Assembly (NCBI GenBank): GCA_038317095.1
Contig: JBBQBB010000009.1
Location: 4,956-68,955 of the forward strand
Reading direction: 5' to 3'
Source of the DNA: Bacteroidia bacterium
Lineage (GTDB): Bacteria; Bacteroidota; Bacteroidia; NS11-12g; UBA955
DNA length: 64,000 nucleotides
In this document: one piece after another, positions 31,159 through 35,568 of the stretch
Layout: each line of letters opens with the position of its first letter
How positions within the stretch are numbered: position 1 is the stretch's first letter
The notes under the pieces: generated by a model
The model's database searches: none
Seen by the model: the letters and a program-made list of their open reading frames with translations, nothing else
Told to the model about the DNA's origin: nothing
Made by a program: the position numbers and the translations under genes

Positions 31159-32594
31159 GCACCCAGTTTTTTACGAATGATTTCATTCGTTTTTTTCGGA
31201 TCTGCTTTGCCTTTACTCGCTTTCATTACCTCGCCTACAAAGAGAGAAAGCAGGCCAACTTTGCCGTTCTTATATTCGTTTACCTTGTCGGCAAATTTCA
31301 CTAAAACTTCATCAACCAATGTATCAATAAAGGTACCATCTGCGTTTTGGCTTAGATTAAGTTCCTGCACAAGTTCAATGGCATTCTTAGTGGGGTTAGC
31401 CAGCAATGCAGGAAATAAGTTTTGAACAGCTGCACTATGGCTAAGCACTTGCTTATCTACCAATTCAATAATACCTGCCAATTGTTCGGGTTTAAGAATA
31501 AAATCTGCAATGCCCAAAGCATTTTCATTTAAATAACCTCGAACAGCCACTGACATCCAGTTAGAAGCAGCTTTGTAATTGGATGTTTTATTTACCAGTT
31601 CTTCAAAATACAAAGCCGTAGCTTTGTCATCCACCAAAACACCGGCGTCATATTCCGAAAGTCCGTACTTGGAAACAAAACGTTCGAAAAGCACTTCTGG
31701 TAGTTCTGGCATAAGGTGTTTAATCTCATGAATATATTTGTCGGTAAGGATTAAAGGCGGAAGATCTGGCTCTGGAAAATAACGGTAATCATTTACCAGT
31801 TCCTTTTTTCGCATGCTAAAAGTGGTGCCATTAGAACCGTTAAAACCGCGTGTTTCACCTTCAATTTTTATACCTTTTAGAGTCAATTCTGTTTGGCGTT
31901 TAATTTCAAAATCGATAGCACGTTTTACGTTACTTATCGAATTCATGTTTTTAACTTCAACCTTTGTTCCTAGTTCAATTTGACCCACAGGTCGTATACT
32001 TACGTTGGCATCGCACCGCAAACTACCTTCTTCCATATTGCCATCGCAAATGTCCAAATATCTGACCAAACGGCGCACTTCGGTTACAAAAGAATATGCT
32101 TCGTCACCGTTGGTAATGTCTGGATGCGATACAATTTCAATCAATGGAGTGCCTGCGCGGTTGAAATCAATCAGAGAATCGTATAAATCTTGGTCGTGCA
32201 TACTTTTACCAGTATCTTCTTCCATGTGTATGCGAATCAGTCTGATTCTTTTTTTGTCCCCGTTTTTTGGTTTTACGGTTACATATCCATCATTGCAAAG
32301 CGGCGTATCGAATTGGGTAATCTGGTAACCTTTAGGCAAATCTGCATAGAAATAATTTTTTCTAGAATAACTATTTTCTTTGCGAATGTCGCAATGAAGT
32401 GCCAATCCTATTTTAATGGCAGATTCGATCGCTTTTTTATTGTGTTTTGGCAAAGTACCAGGATGCGCCAAACTAATTACGCTAACTTGGGTGTTTGGCA
32501 AAGCACCATATTCCGCACTATCCGCACTAAAAGCTTTGCTCTTGGTGAGCAGTTGAACGTGAATTTCCAAACCTATTACTGCTTCAAATTCCAT
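31155..32594 (-). CDS. gatB: Asp/Glu-tRNA amidotransferase subunit B
   Basis: IGLEIHVQL, RKNYFYADLPKGYQI, GSLRCDAN, DYRYFPEPDL. Start set at MEFEAV because a TAATTTTG promoter sits at 32610-32617. Confidence 0.98.
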   Translation of the reverse strand: MEFEAVIGLEIHVQLLTKSKAFSADSAEYGALPNTQVSVISLAHPGTLPKHNKKAIESAIKIGLALHCDIRKENSYSRKNYFYADLPKGYQITQFDTPLCNDGYVTVKPKNGDKKRIRLIRIHMEEDTGKSMHDQDLYDSLIDFNRAGTPLIEIVSHPDITNGDEAYSFVTEVRRLVRYLDICDGNMEEGSLRCDANVSIRPVGQIELGTKVEVKNMNSISNVKRAIDFEIKRQTELTLKGIKIEGETRGFNGSNGTTFSMRKKELVNDYRYFPEPDLPPLILTDKYIHEIKHLMPELPEVLFERFVSKYGLSEYDAGVLVDDKATALYFEELVNKTSNYKAASNWMSVAVRGYLNENALGIADFILKPEQLAGIIELVDKQVLSHSAAVQNLFPALLANPTKNAIELVQELNLSQNADGTFIDTLVDEVLVKFADKVNEYKNGKVGLLSLFVGEVMKASKGKADPKKTNEIIRKKLGA

Positions 32595-32702
32595 AATACA
32601 ATAGAAAGGCAAAATTACGGCAAACGGCTTTAATAACGTGGGTATGAATGATGAAAATGCATTTTTATTTACCAGATTATTTAAAGTGCCTCATTACTTC
32701 GC

Positions 32703-32710
32703 TAACTTTG
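32703..32710 (+). promoter_or_regulatory. -7 promoter (TAACTTTG) of rnpB
   Basis: TAnnTTTG just upstream of the rnpB 5' end. Confidence 0.75.
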
Positions 32711-32715
32711 CAGTG

Positions 32716-33106
32716 CAGTTCTTCCTGTCGCCTAAACATTATTGTTTTGGAGGAAAGTCCGGGCAACACAGAGCACCGTGCTACCTAACGGGTAGGCTTT
32801 TGATTCGTAAGGGTCGAAAGACAGCCAGTGTCACAGAAACTAAACCGTCAAGGCAAGATTTGCTTCGCCTTGATAAGGGTGAAAAAGCGGGGTAAGAGCC
32901 CACTCGCCGGTTTGTAAAAATCGGTTGGGATAAACCTCACGGGTTGAAAAGCCAAATAAACCCGGTTATGAACTGCTCGTTTAGGTTCGTTGCAAAACGA
33001 ACAACCGGGAGGGTAGGCTGATTGATCCGATTCGCGAGAATCGGACCAGATAAATGACAGGATGTACATAGAAATATGTATAAACAGAACCCGGCTTACA
33101 GGACTG
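32716..33106 (+). ncRNA. rnpB: RNase P RNA (type A)
   Basis: GAGGAAAGTCCGGGC, AGTGTCACAGAAA, GGTAAGAGC, GATAAACC, AGATAAATGAC, ACAGAACCCGGCTTAC; 5' CAGTTC pairs with 3' GGACTG. Ends are approximate. Confidence 0.95.
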
Positions 33107-33185
33107 TTTTTTATTGTGTGAATAGAATGATACTTGAAGAATAAAAATACATAAATTTATTCTTGCCTTTAAGGAGCAGAAGTAT

Positions 33186-33193
33186 TAATTTTG
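33186..33193 (+). promoter_or_regulatory. -7 promoter (TAATTTTG) of tRNA-Gly
   Basis: TAnnTTTG about 35 nt before the tRNA. Confidence 0.7.
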
Positions 33194-33228
33194 CAGCACT
33201 GTAAAAAAGGATATTTATATCCTAACAA

Positions 33229-33304
33229 GCAGAAGTAGCTCAGTTGGTAGAGCATCACCTTGCCAAGGTGAGGGTCGCGAGTTCGAGTCTCGTCTTCTGC
33301 TCCA
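33229..33304 (+). tRNA. tRNA-Gly (GCC)
   Basis: GCAGAAGTAGCTCAGTTGGTAGAGC...TTGCCAA loop...GAGTTCGAGTCTC...TCTGCT-CCA. Confidence 0.97.
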
Positions 33305-33472
33305 AAAGCCCCGGAAACGGGGCTTTTCTTTTGATATGCATTGCGTTTATATATTGTATTCGCCGTTGAATAATAAATTTTATATTGGAGAAACCTCAAA
33401 TATTGAAGAACGGCTCAAGCAACACAATCGAGGCCTAAATCCAAGTACCGCACCATTTGCACCCTGGGAAAT
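33290..33472 (+). repeat. 183-bp direct repeat, copy 1 (tRNA 3' end + terminator + GIY-YIG 5' half)
   Basis: Matches 33756-33938 with 3 mismatches; period 466 bp. Confidence 0.95.
33305..33332 (+). terminator. Intrinsic terminator after tRNA-Gly (repeated at 33771-33798)
   Basis: AAAGCCCCG-gaaa-CGGGGCTTTTCTTTT. Confidence 0.85.
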
Positions 33473-33641
33473 AGCATTTAGTTGCGAAAAGCCCATTCTG
33501 CGAGAAGCATTGAAATTGGAAAAGAAGCTAAAAAACCTACACAGTCATGCCCGGATTATTGCCTTTACCTTGCATTCGCGGAGTCCACTGCGGGAGACTC
33601 CGCGAAATTGGGATGGTTTATGGAAATACCCCAAACTATAA
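33336..33641 (+). CDS. Small stand-alone GIY-YIG nuclease
   Basis: CVYILYS...KFYIGET...ERLKQHN...EALKLEKKLK contains the Tyr, Arg, His and Glu catalytic set. Confidence 0.9.
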   Translation: MHCVYILYSPLNNKFYIGETSNIEERLKQHNRGLNPSTAPFAPWEIAFSCEKPILREALKLEKKLKNLHSHARIIAFTLHSRSPLRETPRNWDGLWKYPKL

Positions 33642-33662
33642 AATAAAATGGGGGTTTGAGAC

Positions 33663-33755
33663 CTCCGACGATTCCATGTTTTGCCCTGAAGGCAAACATT
33701 GGAATGTCGTGAGCCCACGACCGCCTAGGACCCCAAAGTCCAAGGCGCGTCGGGG
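33663..33755 (+). repeat. REP-like GC-rich double-hairpin element fused to a tRNA-Gly 3' remnant
   Basis: Hairpin 1: CGAC-ATTCCA-TGTTT-GCC..GGC-AAACA-TGGAAT-GTCG. Hairpin 2: CACGAC-CGCCT-GGAC-CCCAAA-GTCC-AGGCG-CGTCGGG. Confidence 0.65.
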
Positions 33756-33938
33756 TCGTCTTCTGCTCCAAAAGCCCCGGAAACGGGGCTTTTCTTTTGA
33801 TATGCATTGCGTTTATATATTGTATTCGCCGTTGAATAATAAATTTTATATTGGAGAAACCTCAAATATTGAAGAACGGCTTAAGCAACACAATCGAGGG
33901 CTAAATCCAAGTACTGCACCATTTGCACCCTGGGAAAT
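33756..33938 (+). repeat. 183-bp direct repeat, copy 2
   Basis: See 33290-33472. Confidence 0.95.
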
Positions 33939-33981
33939 CCGAAAATTATTATCAATTATTGTTACCTCTGATGAAATTTAG
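33802..33981 (+). pseudogene. Truncated second GIY-YIG copy (59 aa)
   Basis: First 46 residues are identical to copy 1, then unrelated; lacks the EALKLE catalytic-Glu helix. Confidence 0.85.
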
Positions 33982-33987
33982 GGCAAA

Positions 33988-34015
33988 AAAAAAACCGACA
34001 CTAGGTCGGTTTTTT
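33988..34015. terminator. Bidirectional terminator
   Basis: AAAAAACCGAC-actag-GTCGGTTTTTT between convergent genes. Confidence 0.8.
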
Positions 34016-34032
34016 GATTTTTAAAATTTTAT

Positions 34033-35568
34033 TTACGGTGCTTTGCGGTTTCTTTTGGTTTTCTTATTGATACCACTAGAAGGCAAACCATTGTATTTTT
34101 TCTTACTATTACCTACTGGTGCACCAATGCGAATCATGGCACATCTGAAACCAAGGGTTGAAAGATCTTGTTTTTCATCAAGGAAACGACGTGTACCTGG
34201 AGAAGCCCAATAAACACGATCATTCCAACTTCCACCTTTAATCACACGAGCCTTATTGTTTATCAATGAAGTAACTCCGTATTCATAGGTCATTTCACCA
34301 TCATTGTAATTTTCTTCGTCTTTAAATCCTATGTTGTCAGCTTTCTTATAATTTCGTCGGTTGATGTTTTCAGCTTCAGTTACATCTCTGTAAATTAATC
34401 GACCCAAAGTATCTTTTTGCTCAATGGCTCCGTATTGATCCAATAAAATAGTTTTGTATACGTTACCGCGGAATGGCATAAACTGATCCATATCTTCCAT
34501 ACTTAATGGACGGTATACATCCAATGTCCATTCGGTAACGTTGCCAGACATATTGTATAATCCATAGCTATTAGGCCAGTAAGAGAAAACGGGTGTTGTG
34601 ATAAATCCAGCATCATTTAAGAATCCACCGGCCAAACCACCATTGTCACCTTTGGCACGCAAAACGTTTACACGAATTTTTCCACGGTCCTTTTCTTTGC
34701 CTTCTTTAATGCGAATGGTATAATCATCCCAAGCATATACTTTCTTTTGATCTACATTATCGAACTGTGTTTCGCCCACGTTTGCCTGCGCTGCATATTC
34801 CCATTCTGCTTCAGTTGGTAGTCTGTAATCTGGCAAAAGAATCCCATCTTCCATTTTGGCACGGTAGCGTTTTTGGTCCTTATTTTTAGCCTTAGAATAA
34901 TCTTTTAAAGGTTTTTTGCCCTTTTTAGAGAATTCAAATTGACCCGCAAGATAAGCGCGGGTATTAAAATTATTTTCGGCCACACGGTCTGCATTTACGT
35001 TGTATTTAACGATTCTCTTTTGATCTAGAATCATTTCGTTCACACGATCCGTGCGCCAAGTTGCAAAGTCATTGGCTTGATGCCAGTTAACACCTACTAC
35101 TGGGTAATCTTTGTAGGCAGGGTGGCGGTAATAGTACTCCACAAATGGCTCGTTATAGGCCAACTTACTCCTCCAGCACAAAGAATCTGGCAAAGCGTGC
35201 TGGTAAATGGTTATGTCATCCACAAAAGCTTTTTGTAGCCAATATTCATATTCTAGATATTGAATATTACTCACTTCGGTTTCATCCATATAAAAAGAGT
35301 TCACCGTTACACGACGTTCAACGTTGTCATTGTTATATGTTAAATCTTTTTCGGTTGACCCCATAGTGTAGGATCCACCTTCTACCAAAACCAAGCCAGG
35401 TCCAGTTTCCTGTCCTTTGTAACGTGGATTGGCAAATCCACCCCATTTGGGATCATTGTAGGATTGACCCGTGGTGTTGCTTGCCCTCTTTTTTCCACAT
35501 GAAGATACAGCCATGCTTGCTGCAATGACTGCTATTCCGGCGAATTTTACCAAATTATTGTTTGTCAT
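34033..35568 (-). CDS. gldJ: Gliding motility lipoprotein GldJ (FGE-sulfatase fold)
   Basis: Lipobox VSSC; GPGLVLVEGG, FYMDETEV, YPVVGVNW, YRLPTEAEWEYAA, GFRCAM; divergent from porU. Confidence 0.88.
   Translation of the reverse strand: MTNNNLVKFAGIAVIAASMAVSSCGKKRASNTTGQSYNDPKWGGFANPRYKGQETGPGLVLVEGGSYTMGSTEKDLTYNNDNVERRVTVNSFYMDETEVSNIQYLEYEYWLQKAFVDDITIYQHALPDSLCWRSKLAYNEPFVEYYYRHPAYKDYPVVGVNWHQANDFATWRTDRVNEMILDQKRIVKYNVNADRVAENNFNTRAYLAGQFEFSKKGKKPLKDYSKAKNKDQKRYRAKMEDGILLPDYRLPTEAEWEYAAQANVGETQFDNVDQKKVYAWDDYTIRIKEGKEKDRGKIRVNVLRAKGDNGGLAGGFLNDAGFITTPVFSYWPNSYGLYNMSGNVTEWTLDVYRPLSMEDMDQFMPFRGNVYKTILLDQYGAIEQKDTLGRLIYRDVTEAENINRRNYKKADNIGFKDEENYNDGEMTYEYGVTSLINNKARVIKGGSWNDRVYWASPGTRRFLDEKQDLSTLGFRCAMIRIGAPVGNSKKKYNGLPSSGINKKTKRNRKAP

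What the first reader, a model, noticed from the sequence alone, without database searches (positions are those of the whole stretch)
33229..33981. tRNA-anchored tandem GIY-YIG unit with REP-like hairpins: candidate new tRNA-parasitic mobile system
Seen: a 466-bp period of [tRNA-Gly 3' end - terminator - small GIY-YIG gene - GC-rich double hairpin]. The second tRNA remnant GGGTCG|TCTTCTGCTCCA equals the tRNA 3' part with the T-arm removed at a TCG microhomology, and it is fused directly to the hairpin element. The two gene copies differ at only three positions over the repeat, all synonymous (CTC/CTT, GGC/GGG, ACC/ACT). No integrase or transposase is present. Known: small GIY-YIG proteins (Slx1/YhbQ-like) include structure-specific nucleases. 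Inference: the nuclease nicks hairpin or tRNA-like ssDNA and drives amplification or spread of its own unit, by analogy with RAYT/REP systems but using a different enzyme. Three synonymous changes are suggestive of selection, not statistically strong.
Basis: partly seen in the sequence, partly recalled or inferred. Interest (0 to 1): 0.82.

Follow-up and report, generated by a model that had tools for sequence, protein, structure and literature searches.

The report
tRNA-linked mini nuclease cassette, partly duplicated
A tiny nuclease gene with a hairpin-filled scrap of tRNA sits directly behind a tRNA-Gly gene and has started to repeat itself; the same package sits behind many different tRNA genes across the phylum Bacteroidota and looks like a little-known kind of selfish DNA.

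Summary
A 183-nt direct repeat (33290-33472 and 33756-33938, 3 mismatches, 466-nt spacing) gives 1.4 copies of a unit: tRNA-Gly tail, terminator, small GIY-YIG gene, hairpin element. The second gene copy is cut off after codon 46. Independent metagenome contigs show the same junctions, so it is not an assembly artefact.

It is one instance of a widespread design. In 121 genomes of the same family, 79 of 108 assessable GIY-YIG arrays lie within 400 nt downstream of a same-strand tRNA. In a phylum-wide sample the figure is 56 of 73. Many arrays are followed by a second, partial tRNA copy whose loop or arm is replaced by a GC-rich palindrome, and tandem arrays of 2-4 units are common. The proteins are under strong purifying selection (median dN/dS 0.087).

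The closest known systems are the Ssn single-strand nucleases with hairpin repeats (2025) and phage SegB, a GIY-YIG homing endonuclease in tRNA clusters that drives tandem amplification (2008, 2026). My 9 paper searches found no description of the chromosomal tRNA-embedded cassette. Earlier notes of this scan report the same design on other DNA. Mobility is inferred from comparison. The nuclease's substrate and the mechanism are untested.

The parts
32712..33114 (+). RNase P RNA gene (context, upstream neighbour)
   Evidence: Rfam RF00010, 242.6 bits, E 6.6e-79
33186..33193 (+). TAATTTTG, candidate -7 promoter box of the tRNA-Gly gene. No comparable box lies between the tRNA and the nuclease gene.
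   Evidence: Read. The Bacteroidota consensus TAnnTTTG is recalled, not from a call.
33229..33304 (+). Intact tRNA-Gly(GCC)
   Evidence: ARAGORN; Rfam tRNA 71.4 bits
33304..33332 (+). Intrinsic terminator of the tRNA (copy 1). It fills the whole 31-nt gap before the nuclease gene's ATG.
   Evidence: Terminator scan. The same terminator follows tRNA-Gly in relatives without the cassette.
33290..33472 (+). Direct repeat, copy 1: tRNA tail, terminator and codons 1-46 of the gene
33336..33641 (+). Full-length single-domain GIY-YIG nuclease gene (101 aa). The catalytic set Tyr, Tyr, Arg, His, Glu is present.
   Evidence: Pfam PF01541 E 2.6e-16, residues 1-70; conserved columns; PDB relatives UPF0213 and SLX1
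33568..33612 (+). REP-like palindrome inserted in frame in the 3' part of the gene. It replaces 9 nt and adds 12 residues. It is polymorphic.
   Evidence: All 4 runs hold an allele that skips these 45 nt and has 9 other letters instead. Homologues lack these residues. Copies of the palindrome lie on 6 other contigs.
33651..33755 (+). Hairpin element / decayed pseudo-tRNA-Gly: a T-loop-like piece, then an outer stem 33660-33671 / 33746-33757 that encloses three hairpins
   Evidence: ssDNA fold z -6.5; same architecture in G013 and metagenome contig L236; unique in this genome
33756..33938 (+). Direct repeat, copy 2: tRNA tail 33756-33770, terminator 33770-33798, gene codons 1-46 at 33802-33938
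   Evidence: junctions seen in independent contigs
33802..33981 (+). Truncated second nuclease gene. It is homologous for 46 codons, then runs into unrelated sequence. It has no catalytic Glu and is presumably dead.
33989..34015 (.). Terminator hairpin at the end of the convergent GldJ-like gene; marks the end of the locus
34033..35568 (-). FGE-sulfatase-domain (GldJ-like) gene, downstream neighbour (context)
   Evidence: Pfam PF03781 E 1.1e-38. The same neighbour lies at this tRNA-Gly locus in L005 and L007-L011. The name GldJ is recalled.

Best explanation
The locus holds a tRNA-linked mini-cassette of about 430-466 bp. Its only gene is a single-domain GIY-YIG nuclease of the UPF0213/Slx1/Ssn-like kind. 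A hairpin-bearing scrap of the same tRNA follows the gene, then a second copy of the tRNA's tail and terminator.

Shown:
- The cassette sits between two copies of [tRNA 3' end + terminator].
- It belongs to a large family that lies directly 3' of many different tRNA genes, or between a 5' tRNA fragment and the intact gene.
- That family forms tandem arrays, leaves relics and pseudogenes, and keeps its protein under purifying selection.

Inferred:
- The duplicated tRNA segment serves as homology arm. A unit can enter, leave or multiply at its cognate tRNA gene by recombination between the repeats.
- Here one complete unit was followed by a second, which later lost everything beyond codon 46 by deletion.
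- The nuclease, by analogy with Ssn and SegB, cuts hairpin or cloverleaf single-stranded DNA at or near tRNA genes, and so starts recombination-dependent copying.
- The gene has no promoter of its own and is expressed by read-through of the tRNA terminator.
For: Local anatomy and reality of the repeat.

Family sample: 53 of 121 genomes had a match, 139 matches in all. All were fetched and gave 144 domain hits in 126 arrays.
- A same-strand tRNA ends within 100 nt upstream in 56 arrays and 101-400 nt upstream in 23.
- It ends more than 400 nt upstream in 1 array, and 28 arrays have none.
- 18 arrays are cut by a contig end.
- 14 named tRNA species plus one irregular ARAGORN call are involved.
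- Expected by tRNA density: about 0.19% (32 tRNAs in 3.35 Mb; my arithmetic).

Phylum-wide sample: 79 loci, 48 within 100 nt, 8 within 101-400 nt, 17 none, 6 cut by a contig end. 16 tRNA species, arrays of up to 4 units.

tRNA-derived repeat after the gene: 49 of 79 arrays. An exact copy of the tRNA tail of 10 nt or more: 34 of 79.

Reverse layout, [5' fragment][gene][intact tRNA]: L053 and L061 and own C26.

This tRNA-Gly locus in 11 relatives:
- occupied by a sister unit in G013;
- occupied by a divergent GIY-YIG gene in G003;
- two gene-less relics in G002;
- empty in 8.
A further occupied allele is L236.

Mobility: in G095, units 91% identical over about 510 nt sit behind tRNA-Phe and tRNA-Arg. 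Their shared DNA starts at the last bases of the tRNA.

Lineage fidelity to a tRNA type: 41 label changes on the tree against a shuffled mean of 73.2, and 0 of 200 shuffles as low.

Selection: median dN/dS 0.087 over 55 pairs. Catalytic residues are conserved.

Expression: a terminator-like hairpin lies in 37 of 56 short spacers, and a promoter box in 2 of 56.

Precedents read: Ssn (PMC11893778, sections 6, 7, 10, 12, 17) and SegB (PMC13096335, passages and section 10).
Against: - No transfer, excision circle or empty-site polymorphism within one population was seen. The only joints in the four runs were the 45-nt skip and the 466-nt go-back.
- Very low dN/dS and the fidelity of lineages to one tRNA type also fit long vertical residence and a host function.
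- 28 of 108 assessable arrays have no intact tRNA nearby. A 9-member clade has none at all.
- The related genomes are not independent, so the counts overstate the number of events.
- The window's hairpins are not the common CCCG..CGGG type, and the published SRM pattern has 0 matches in the window.
- The proteins are only 73-103 aa, with no DNA-binding domain, so sequence-specific homing of the classical kind is unlikely.
- The intact upstream tRNA would remain a target for any tRNA-cutting enzyme. This model does not explain that.
Confidence: 0.6

Rival explanations
1. A resident, host-useful small nuclease gene (UPF0213/YhbQ-like) is parked behind tRNA genes because read-through from a strong promoter gives it low constitutive expression. 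The 466-bp period is an ordinary local tandem duplication followed by a deletion, and no element moves.
For: Strong purifying selection (median dN/dS 0.087). Lineages are tied to one tRNA type across genera. There is no own promoter, and terminators lie in the spacers. The nearest solved relatives are uncharacterised UPF0213 proteins and SLX1, not homing enzymes.
Against: Presence is patchy (53 of 121 genomes; whole genera without a match). There are 1-7 matches per genome. Fragments and copies with stops occur. Relic arrays without a gene exist (L003). Near-identical units sit behind different tRNAs in one genome. tRNA fragments consistently flank the gene.
Confidence: 0.15
2. An Ssn-type host system: the nuclease recognises its hairpin repeats on single-stranded DNA, for example incoming transforming DNA, and modulates recombination. 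The tRNA-side location and the pseudo-tRNAs are by-products of palindromes that insert into any hairpin loop in dispensable DNA.
For: Ssn proteins are small, monomeric, single-domain GIY-YIG enzymes whose genes are flanked by 20-50-nt hairpin repeats with a TCCCGCG..CGCGGGA core (PMC11893778, sections 6, 7, 12). Similar TCCCG..CGGGA palindromes follow the genes here. PAL18 occurs up to 57 times per genome, mostly in intergenic DNA.
Against: PAL18 presence is only weakly linked to a GIY-YIG match (33/20/25/43 genomes), and PAL18-rich genomes exist without a match. The published SRM pattern is not enriched in this genome (2 hits against 5-9 in shuffles). This does not explain why 73-77% of arrays abut a tRNA. 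The word tRNA does not occur in that paper.
Confidence: 0.12
3. The repeats are att-site remnants of an integrase-mediated island or prophage that used the tRNA-Gly 3' end, now almost wholly deleted.
For: Direct repeats of a tRNA 3' end are the classical signature of tRNA-targeted integrases (recalled knowledge).
Against: There is no integrase or transposase among the 10 ORFs within about 8 kb. The repeat includes the nuclease gene's own 5' part. The same roughly 0.4-kb unit recurs at dozens of tRNAs without integrases being needed.
Confidence: 0.03
4. Assembly artefact: a collapsed or mis-joined repeat in a metagenome-assembled genome.
For: The genome is a 115-contig assembly from environmental data, and contigs often break at these cassettes.
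Against: Independent contigs from four runs and two JGI metagenomes show the same junctions, including the truncated second copy.
Confidence: 0.02

Closest known systems
Ssn family of site-specific ssDNA nucleases with NTS/SRM hairpin repeats (SsnA of Neisseria meningitidis; Chenal et al. 2025, PMC11893778; sections 6, 7, 10, 12, 17 read)
   Same: A small single-domain GIY-YIG protein of about 100 aa. Its gene is accompanied by GC-rich hairpin-forming repeats. The palindrome core TCCCG..CGGGA seen after many relatives resembles the NTS core. The authors themselves note an IS-like repeat-gene-repeat layout.
   Different: The paper does not mention tRNA (0 occurrences). Here the hairpins sit inside tRNA-derived fragments, and the unit is bracketed by tRNA-tail duplications and arrayed in tandem. 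The published SRM pattern has 0 matches in the window and is not enriched in the genome. Clade membership (CDD cd10448) could not be tested.
SegB, free-standing GIY-YIG homing endonuclease in the tRNA gene cluster of T-even phages (PMC2330249, seen as search listing and abstract start; PMC13096335, passages and section 10 read)
   Same: A GIY-YIG nuclease gene next to tRNA genes. Homologues are enriched within 1 kb of tRNAs (296 phage genomes). The enzyme drives tandem segmental amplification of the tRNA-plus-nuclease segment by homologous recombination at short homologies.
   Different: SegB is a phage enzyme and is described as site-specific. The protein here is chromosomal and catalytic-domain only. 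Its sequence lies nearer to UPF0213/SLX1 (E 2e-16 and 1.7e-8) than to I-TevI (E 0.0033). Here each unit carries a pseudo-tRNA with hairpins.
UPF0213 / YhbQ and SLX1 structure-specific endonucleases
   Same: These are the best sequence matches among solved structures: BH0048 (1zg2) at 2.1e-16, EF2693 (1ywl) at 1.8e-14, SLX1 at 1.7e-8. Same size class as UPF0213.
   Different: My searches found no tRNA linkage or mobility reported for these. SLX1 works with a partner and carries a further domain (recalled).
REP elements with RAYT (Y1/HUH) transposases
   Same: Dispersed palindromes, sometimes in arrays, with a nuclease gene proposed as their mobiliser.
   Different: The enzyme class differs. The genome also has Y1_Tnp genes of its own (C96, C18), which may be what moves its palindromes.

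Membership tests
GIY-YIG nuclease superfamily (Pfam PF01541) | Domain match with the GIY and YIG motifs and the conserved Arg, His and Glu | tested here: met
   E 2.6e-16, residues 1-70. Y4, Y15, G17, R25 and H29 are invariant and E61 is present in at least 90% of 25 relatives.
Ssn family (cd10448) | Small, single-domain protein without a separate DNA-binding domain | tested here: met
   101 aa here, 84-101 aa in close homologues, 73-103 aa in 120 relatives. The domain covers residues 1-70.
Ssn family (cd10448) | Gene flanked by 20-50-nt hairpin-forming inverted repeats | tested here: inconclusive
   Stable hairpins lie downstream (z -6.5), and CCCG..CGGG palindromes follow 37 of 118 relatives' arrays. 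Upstream there is only the tRNA terminator.
Ssn family (cd10448) | Match of the flanking repeats to the published SRM search pattern | tested here: not met
   0 hits in the window. 2 hits in the genome against 5, 9 and 6 in three shuffles.
Ssn family (cd10448) | Placement in the cd10448 clade; ssDNA-only, site-specific cleavage | not testable with these tools
Free-standing GIY-YIG homing endonucleases (Seg / I-TevI type) | Catalytic domain joined to DNA-binding modules that read a long target | tested here: not met
   There is no room for such modules and no domain beyond residue about 75. Only the first 32 residues match TIGR01453 and the PHROG homing-endonuclease families, weakly.
Free-standing GIY-YIG homing endonucleases (Seg / I-TevI type) | Presence/absence polymorphism at a homologous site | tested here: met
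   tRNA-Gly locus occupied, empty or relic in relatives.
Free-standing GIY-YIG homing endonucleases (Seg / I-TevI type) | Cleavage of the cassette-less allele | not testable with these tools
   No cleavage assay can be run with these tools.
UPF0213 / YhbQ | Sequence similarity over the whole domain | tested here: met
   Profile of 25 relatives against PDB: 1zg2 at 2.1e-16, 1ywl at 1.8e-14.
Integrase-borne tRNA-targeted islands | Tyrosine or serine integrase next to the att repeat | tested here: not met
   10 ORFs between 25.5 and 43.2 kb, none a recombinase.
REP/RAYT | Y1 (HUH) transposase as partner of the palindromes | tested here: not met
   None at the locus. Two full Y1_Tnp genes lie elsewhere in the genome, and their link to the palindromes was not tested.

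The most novel reading that the evidence does not exclude
These units are among the smallest autonomous mobile elements (about 0.4 kb): a structure-specific ssDNA nuclease plus a built-in copy of its target's tail. The nuclease cuts cloverleaf or hairpin DNA extruded at heavily transcribed tRNA genes. The pseudo-tRNA then serves as a homology guide that directs recombination-dependent insertion into the cognate tRNA gene without breaking it. The flanking repeats make the locus a copy-number accordion, as SegB does in phages. The palindrome in the pseudo-tRNA loop would be the enzyme's binding site, or the mark that spares the spare copy.
Probability: 0.25. Interest if true: 0.85.

Novelty: new variant of a known kind. 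Interest (0 to 1): 0.68.

Why it matters
If the reading holds, tRNA genes of Bacteroidota, and by earlier notes of this scan of other phyla, host a very small selfish element that has escaped description. It would link three recent threads:
- Ssn hairpin-specific ssDNA nucleases, whose biological role outside Neisseria is open;
- SegB-driven amplification of tRNA loci in phages;
- the long-known preference of mobile DNA for tRNA genes.

It gives a concrete, testable substrate for a 90-residue nuclease, namely the hairpin-bearing pseudo-tRNA. It explains why assemblies break at tRNA loci, and where many annotated 'GIY-YIG family proteins' and odd pseudo-tRNAs come from. Paired enzyme and hairpin specificities are also of practical interest for ssDNA tools.

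Tried and rejected
- Rfam scan of 31500-35500 at E up to 1: nothing on the hairpin element. It found only RNase P, the tRNA and sub-threshold sRNA matches over the tRNA and terminators.
- NCBIfam and PHROGs: only weak matches of the first 32 residues to homing-endonuclease families.
- The hairpin element 33663-33755 has no second copy in the genome, so it is not itself a dispersed REP.
A closer 8-sequence alignment worked.
- The published SRM pattern gave no enrichment.
- PAL18 against GIY-YIG presence across 121 genomes gave only a weak, phylogeny-confounded link. I therefore dropped the idea that PAL18 depends on this nuclease.
- In 20 PAL18 sites of three other genomes, only 1 lay in a pseudo-tRNA. 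Palindrome-in-tRNA-loop is thus not the palindrome's only niche.
- In run X3 the unit is covered while its flanks are not. By the tool's own warning, uncovered parts prove nothing, so I draw no conclusion about another genomic context or a free circle.
- No deletion joint (an empty site) was seen in the four runs. Contigs cannot show absence.
- Group I intron origin was considered because tRNA-Leu(UAA), Arg(CCU) and CAU tRNAs are among the hosts. I rejected it: about 160 nt of non-coding DNA per unit leaves no room for a ribozyme, and Rfam found none.
- Not run, because the report does not rest on them: structure prediction, complex prediction, the atlas search and the 1.84-billion-protein search.
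- Paper searches that found no bacterial chromosomal description.
Full report
**1. What is in the window**

The + strand reads, in order:
- RNase P RNA at 32712-33114 (Rfam, 242.6 bits).
- tRNA-Gly(GCC) at 33229-33304.
- A terminator at 33304-33327 plus its T run.
- After only 31 nt, an ORF of 101 aa at 33336-33641 with a GIY-YIG domain over residues 1-70 (E 2.6e-16).
- A very stable hairpin region at 33651-33755. As ssDNA it folds at -33.9 kcal/mol, z -6.5, and 0 of 200 shuffles fold as well. An outer stem encloses three hairpins.
- From 33756, the last 15 nt of the tRNA, the terminator and the first 137 nt of the ORF again.

The repeat finder reports this as one 183-nt repeat, 98% identical, with spacing 466. 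The second ORF copy leaves homology after codon 46, so it lacks the catalytic Glu. The structure is therefore 1.4 units: most simply two units, followed by a deletion.

The three differences are all third-codon positions. They are not fixed. A metagenome contig carries the first copy's letters in the second copy, and the runs vary at the same sites.

The neighbours within about 8 kb are housekeeping and type IX secretion genes: GatB, an AMP-binding enzyme, a GldJ-like FGE-sulfatase-domain protein, PorP/SprF, peptidase C25 and PorV. There is no recombinase.

**2. Is the repeat real?**

The genome is a 115-contig environmental assembly. Logan contigs of four runs from four studies were laid on 33100-34100.
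- Contigs of X1, X2 and X4 cross the junction 33755/33756.
- The X3 contig closes the cycle 33755->33290.
- One contig runs unbroken from 33613 to 33938.
- Two contigs bridge 33938/33939 into the unique downstream DNA.
- Three contigs are 460 nt long, which equals a 430-nt cycle plus k-1. That is what a de Bruijn assembler makes of a tandem repeat.

Two JGI metagenomes hold contigs that break at or span the same boundaries. L234 covers 33459-34600 at 98.5% identity. An artefact of this one assembly is excluded. Copy number cannot be read from contigs.

**3. A bonus from the reads**

All four runs carry an allele in which 33568-33612 (45 nt) is replaced by 9 nt. That restores the C-terminus seen in homologues (..IAFI.K.G.W..). 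The 45 nt are a palindrome with copies on six other contigs, often in arrays. So in this genome a REP-like element has been inserted in frame into the nuclease gene, adding 12 residues. L234 has the insertion as well.

**4. The same design elsewhere**

*This tRNA-Gly locus in relatives.*
- G013, of another genus, has tRNA-Gly, terminator, a sister GIY-YIG gene (53% identity), a T-loop-like piece, two hairpins, then a 53-nt copy of tRNA tail plus terminator.
- Metagenome contig L236 has the same layout with a gene 48% identical.
- G002, of the same genus, has no gene. It has two decayed tandem copies of exactly the junction 'CGTCGGGGTCG + tRNA tail + terminator'.
- G003 has a divergent GIY-YIG gene 363 nt after the tRNA.
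- Eight further relatives have an empty site with the same native terminator.

*Other GIY-YIG loci in the window's own genome.*
- One is behind tRNA-Met (C76).
- One lies between tRNA-Pro leader and 5' fragments and the intact tRNA-Pro (C26).
- One is followed by a pseudo-tRNA-Met (C58).
- One is at a contig end (C57).

*The family census.* I searched 121 genomes of the family with the protein. 53 had a match, 139 matches in all. I fetched every match with flanks. An iterated HMM found 144 domains or fragments in 126 arrays: 109 single, 16 double, 1 triple.

The position of the nearest same-strand tRNA end upstream was:

| Position | Arrays |
|---|---|
| within 100 nt | 56 |
| 101-400 nt | 23 |
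| more than 400 nt | 1 |
| none | 28 |
| cut by a contig end | 18 |

That is 79 of 108 assessable arrays, at 14 named tRNA species plus one irregular ARAGORN call. From 32 tRNAs in 3.35 Mb I expect about 0.19% by chance. The genomes are related, so the counts are not independent events, but the spread over tRNA types and genera is wide.

*The phylum-wide sample.* Species-representative genomes gave 79 loci, from Chitinophagales, Saprospiraceae, Sphingobacteriales, Flavobacteriales, Cytophagales and others. Of these, 48 were within 100 nt, 8 within 101-400 nt, 17 had none and 6 were cut by a contig end. 16 tRNA species were involved, and arrays reached 4 units.

**5. What follows the gene**

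- In 49 of 79 tRNA-adjacent arrays, a piece of the same tRNA recurs after the gene.
- In 34 of 79, an exact copy of the tRNA tail of at least 10 nt recurs.
- Usually the copy runs from somewhere between position 36 and 75 to the end, plus 20-60 nt of 3' flank with the terminator, at 95-100% identity.
- Often a 5' piece (about positions 8-30) stands just before it. The part between them, an anticodon arm, D loop or T stem, is replaced by a GC-rich palindrome of the form TCCCG..CGGGA.
- A perfect CCCG..CGGG palindrome (stem of at least 6) lies within 220 nt after the gene in 37 of 118 arrays. The control windows gave 0 of 106 and 4 of 103. The phylum sample gave 7 of 76 against 0 of 63 and 0 of 73.
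- Among the 29 arrays without an intact upstream tRNA, 10 have tRNA fragments. Two of them, and own C26, show the reverse layout [5' fragment][gene][intact tRNA].

So the gene sits between one whole and one partial copy of a tRNA. A single crossover between a chromosomal tRNA gene and a unit carrying a partial tRNA would give this result. So would insertion with a long target duplication.

**6. Signs of movement and of function**

- On a tree of 120 full-length proteins, the tRNA label is strongly clustered: 41 changes against a shuffled mean of 73.2, and 0 of 200 shuffles as low. I dropped 24 of the 144 domain hits from this tree because they were partial or held N.
- The window's protein pairs with G013's tRNA-Gly protein.
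- One well-supported clade of 11 near-identical proteins sits behind Phe, Arg(ACG), Arg(CCG), Met and Ala tRNAs. Two of them are in one genome, G095, 91% identical over about 510 nt.
- In that pair the shared DNA begins at the last bases of the tRNA. It ends with a T-loop-like/acceptor-like remnant plus a terminator. This defines the unit's ends and shows a change of host tRNA.
- A 9-member clade has no tRNA nearby.
- dN/dS over 55 pairs has median 0.087 and is never above 1. Pairs were taken at nucleotide identity 0.72-0.985 and dS 0.05-2, with same-locus pairs excluded, and they are not independent.
- The catalytic Tyr, Tyr, Arg, His and Glu are conserved.
- Spacers between tRNA and gene mostly hold only a terminator (37 of 56) and almost never a promoter box (2 of 56). 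Expression therefore probably rides on tRNA read-through. This is an inference.

**7. The palindromes**

One 18-nt palindrome, PAL18, fills the anticodon loop, and sometimes also the T loop, of pseudo-tRNA-Met copies in many genera. In the window's genome it marks two tandem pseudo-tRNA-Met copies in front of the intact gene (C6), a pseudo-tRNA-Asp piece (C26), and the pseudo-tRNA-Met after the C58 gene.

PAL18 is also a dispersed repeat in its own right.
- It occurs in 58 of 121 genomes, up to 57 copies per genome, against 0-1 for the reversed control.
- It lies mostly in ordinary intergenic DNA. In 20 sites inspected, 1 was in a pseudo-tRNA.
- Its presence is only weakly tied to a GIY-YIG match: 33, 20, 25 and 43 genomes in the four cells of the cross-table.
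- The genome also has two full Y1 transposase genes.

Who moves the palindromes is therefore open.

**8. Comparison with what is known**

By sequence the family is nearest to the solved UPF0213 proteins (2.1e-16 and 1.8e-14) and SLX1 (1.7e-8), and far from I-TevI (0.0033).

I read its sections 6, 7, 10, 12 and 17.
- Ssn proteins are small, monomeric, single-domain GIY-YIG enzymes that bind a hairpin repeat and cut ssDNA beside it.
- Their genes are flanked by such repeats.
- The Neisseria repeat has a TCCCGCG..CGCGGGA core much like the palindromes here.
- The paper never mentions tRNA.
- Its SRM search pattern is absent from the window and not enriched in this genome.
- I could not test clade membership.

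The SegB papers show a phage GIY-YIG enzyme that sits among tRNA genes, cuts tRNA-containing DNA and drives tandem amplification of tRNA plus its own gene by homologous recombination. Its homologues are enriched near tRNAs in phage genomes (PMC2330249 seen as listing only).

Nine paper searches found no description of small chromosomal GIY-YIG genes embedded at bacterial tRNA genes. Supplementary tables of both papers were closed and might bear on this.

Earlier notes of this scan describe the same design on other DNA, including Patescibacteria. I tested only what is reported above.

**9. Verdict**

- Its proposed mechanism is plausible by analogy with Ssn and SegB, but untested.
- The system is best called an undescribed tRNA-embedded variant of known kinds, not a wholly new class.
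- A host function cannot be excluded, given the very low dN/dS.

Noticed in passing
window 33568-33612: A REP-like palindrome (CGCGGAGTC..GACTCCGCG) is inserted in frame inside the nuclease gene and adds 12 residues. Four metagenome runs carry the allele without it, one JGI contig carries it. Copies lie on contigs C45, C20, C36, C79, C66 and C87, often in arrays.
   Followed up: partly
own genome C6:87436-87711: Two tandem pseudo-tRNA-Met copies (period 96) stand directly in front of the intact tRNA-Met(CAT). Each has the full 5' half, the 18-nt palindrome in place of the anticodon, and a decayed T arm. No nuclease gene lies between them. The contig ends 75 nt after the tRNA.
   Followed up: partly
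own genome C26:20950-21710 and C26:3382: A GIY-YIG gene is framed by three copies of the tRNA-Pro leader. The first copy carries a tRNA-Pro 5' fragment with a 14-nt palindrome containing CCGCGG in its D loop. Separately, a pseudo-tRNA-Asp piece with the 18-nt palindrome lies 80 nt upstream of tRNA-Asp.
   Followed up: partly
family-wide; e.g. L213, L220: The 18-nt palindrome TCCCGATAGCTATCGGGA is a dispersed repeat with up to 57 copies per genome. It is often embedded in AT-rich 14-nt tandem repeats or in larger MITE-like repeats. Some genomes rich in it had no GIY-YIG match.
   Followed up: partly
own genome C96:4574-4918, C18:45270-45614: Two full-length Y1_Tnp (IS200/RAYT-type) genes are possible mobilisers of the genome's palindromes.
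   Followed up: no
window 33290-33780 in run X3: The 430-nt cycle is present without a single other letter at depth about 8, while both unique flanks have no cover in that run. This could be another genomic context or a free or tandem form, or simply missing contigs.
   Followed up: no
own genome C45:1-95, C87:9650-9710, C2:56700-56745: G/C-only simple repeats around CCCCGCCGCGGCGGGG occur in a 38% G+C genome, two of them at contig ends.
   Followed up: no
L007 (G003) 100-240 after tRNA-Gly: Two copies of another hairpin repeat (GGGACATCCG..CTGCGCAGCAG..CGTCTGGATATATC) lie between tRNA-Gly and a divergent GIY-YIG gene in a same-genus relative.
   Followed up: no
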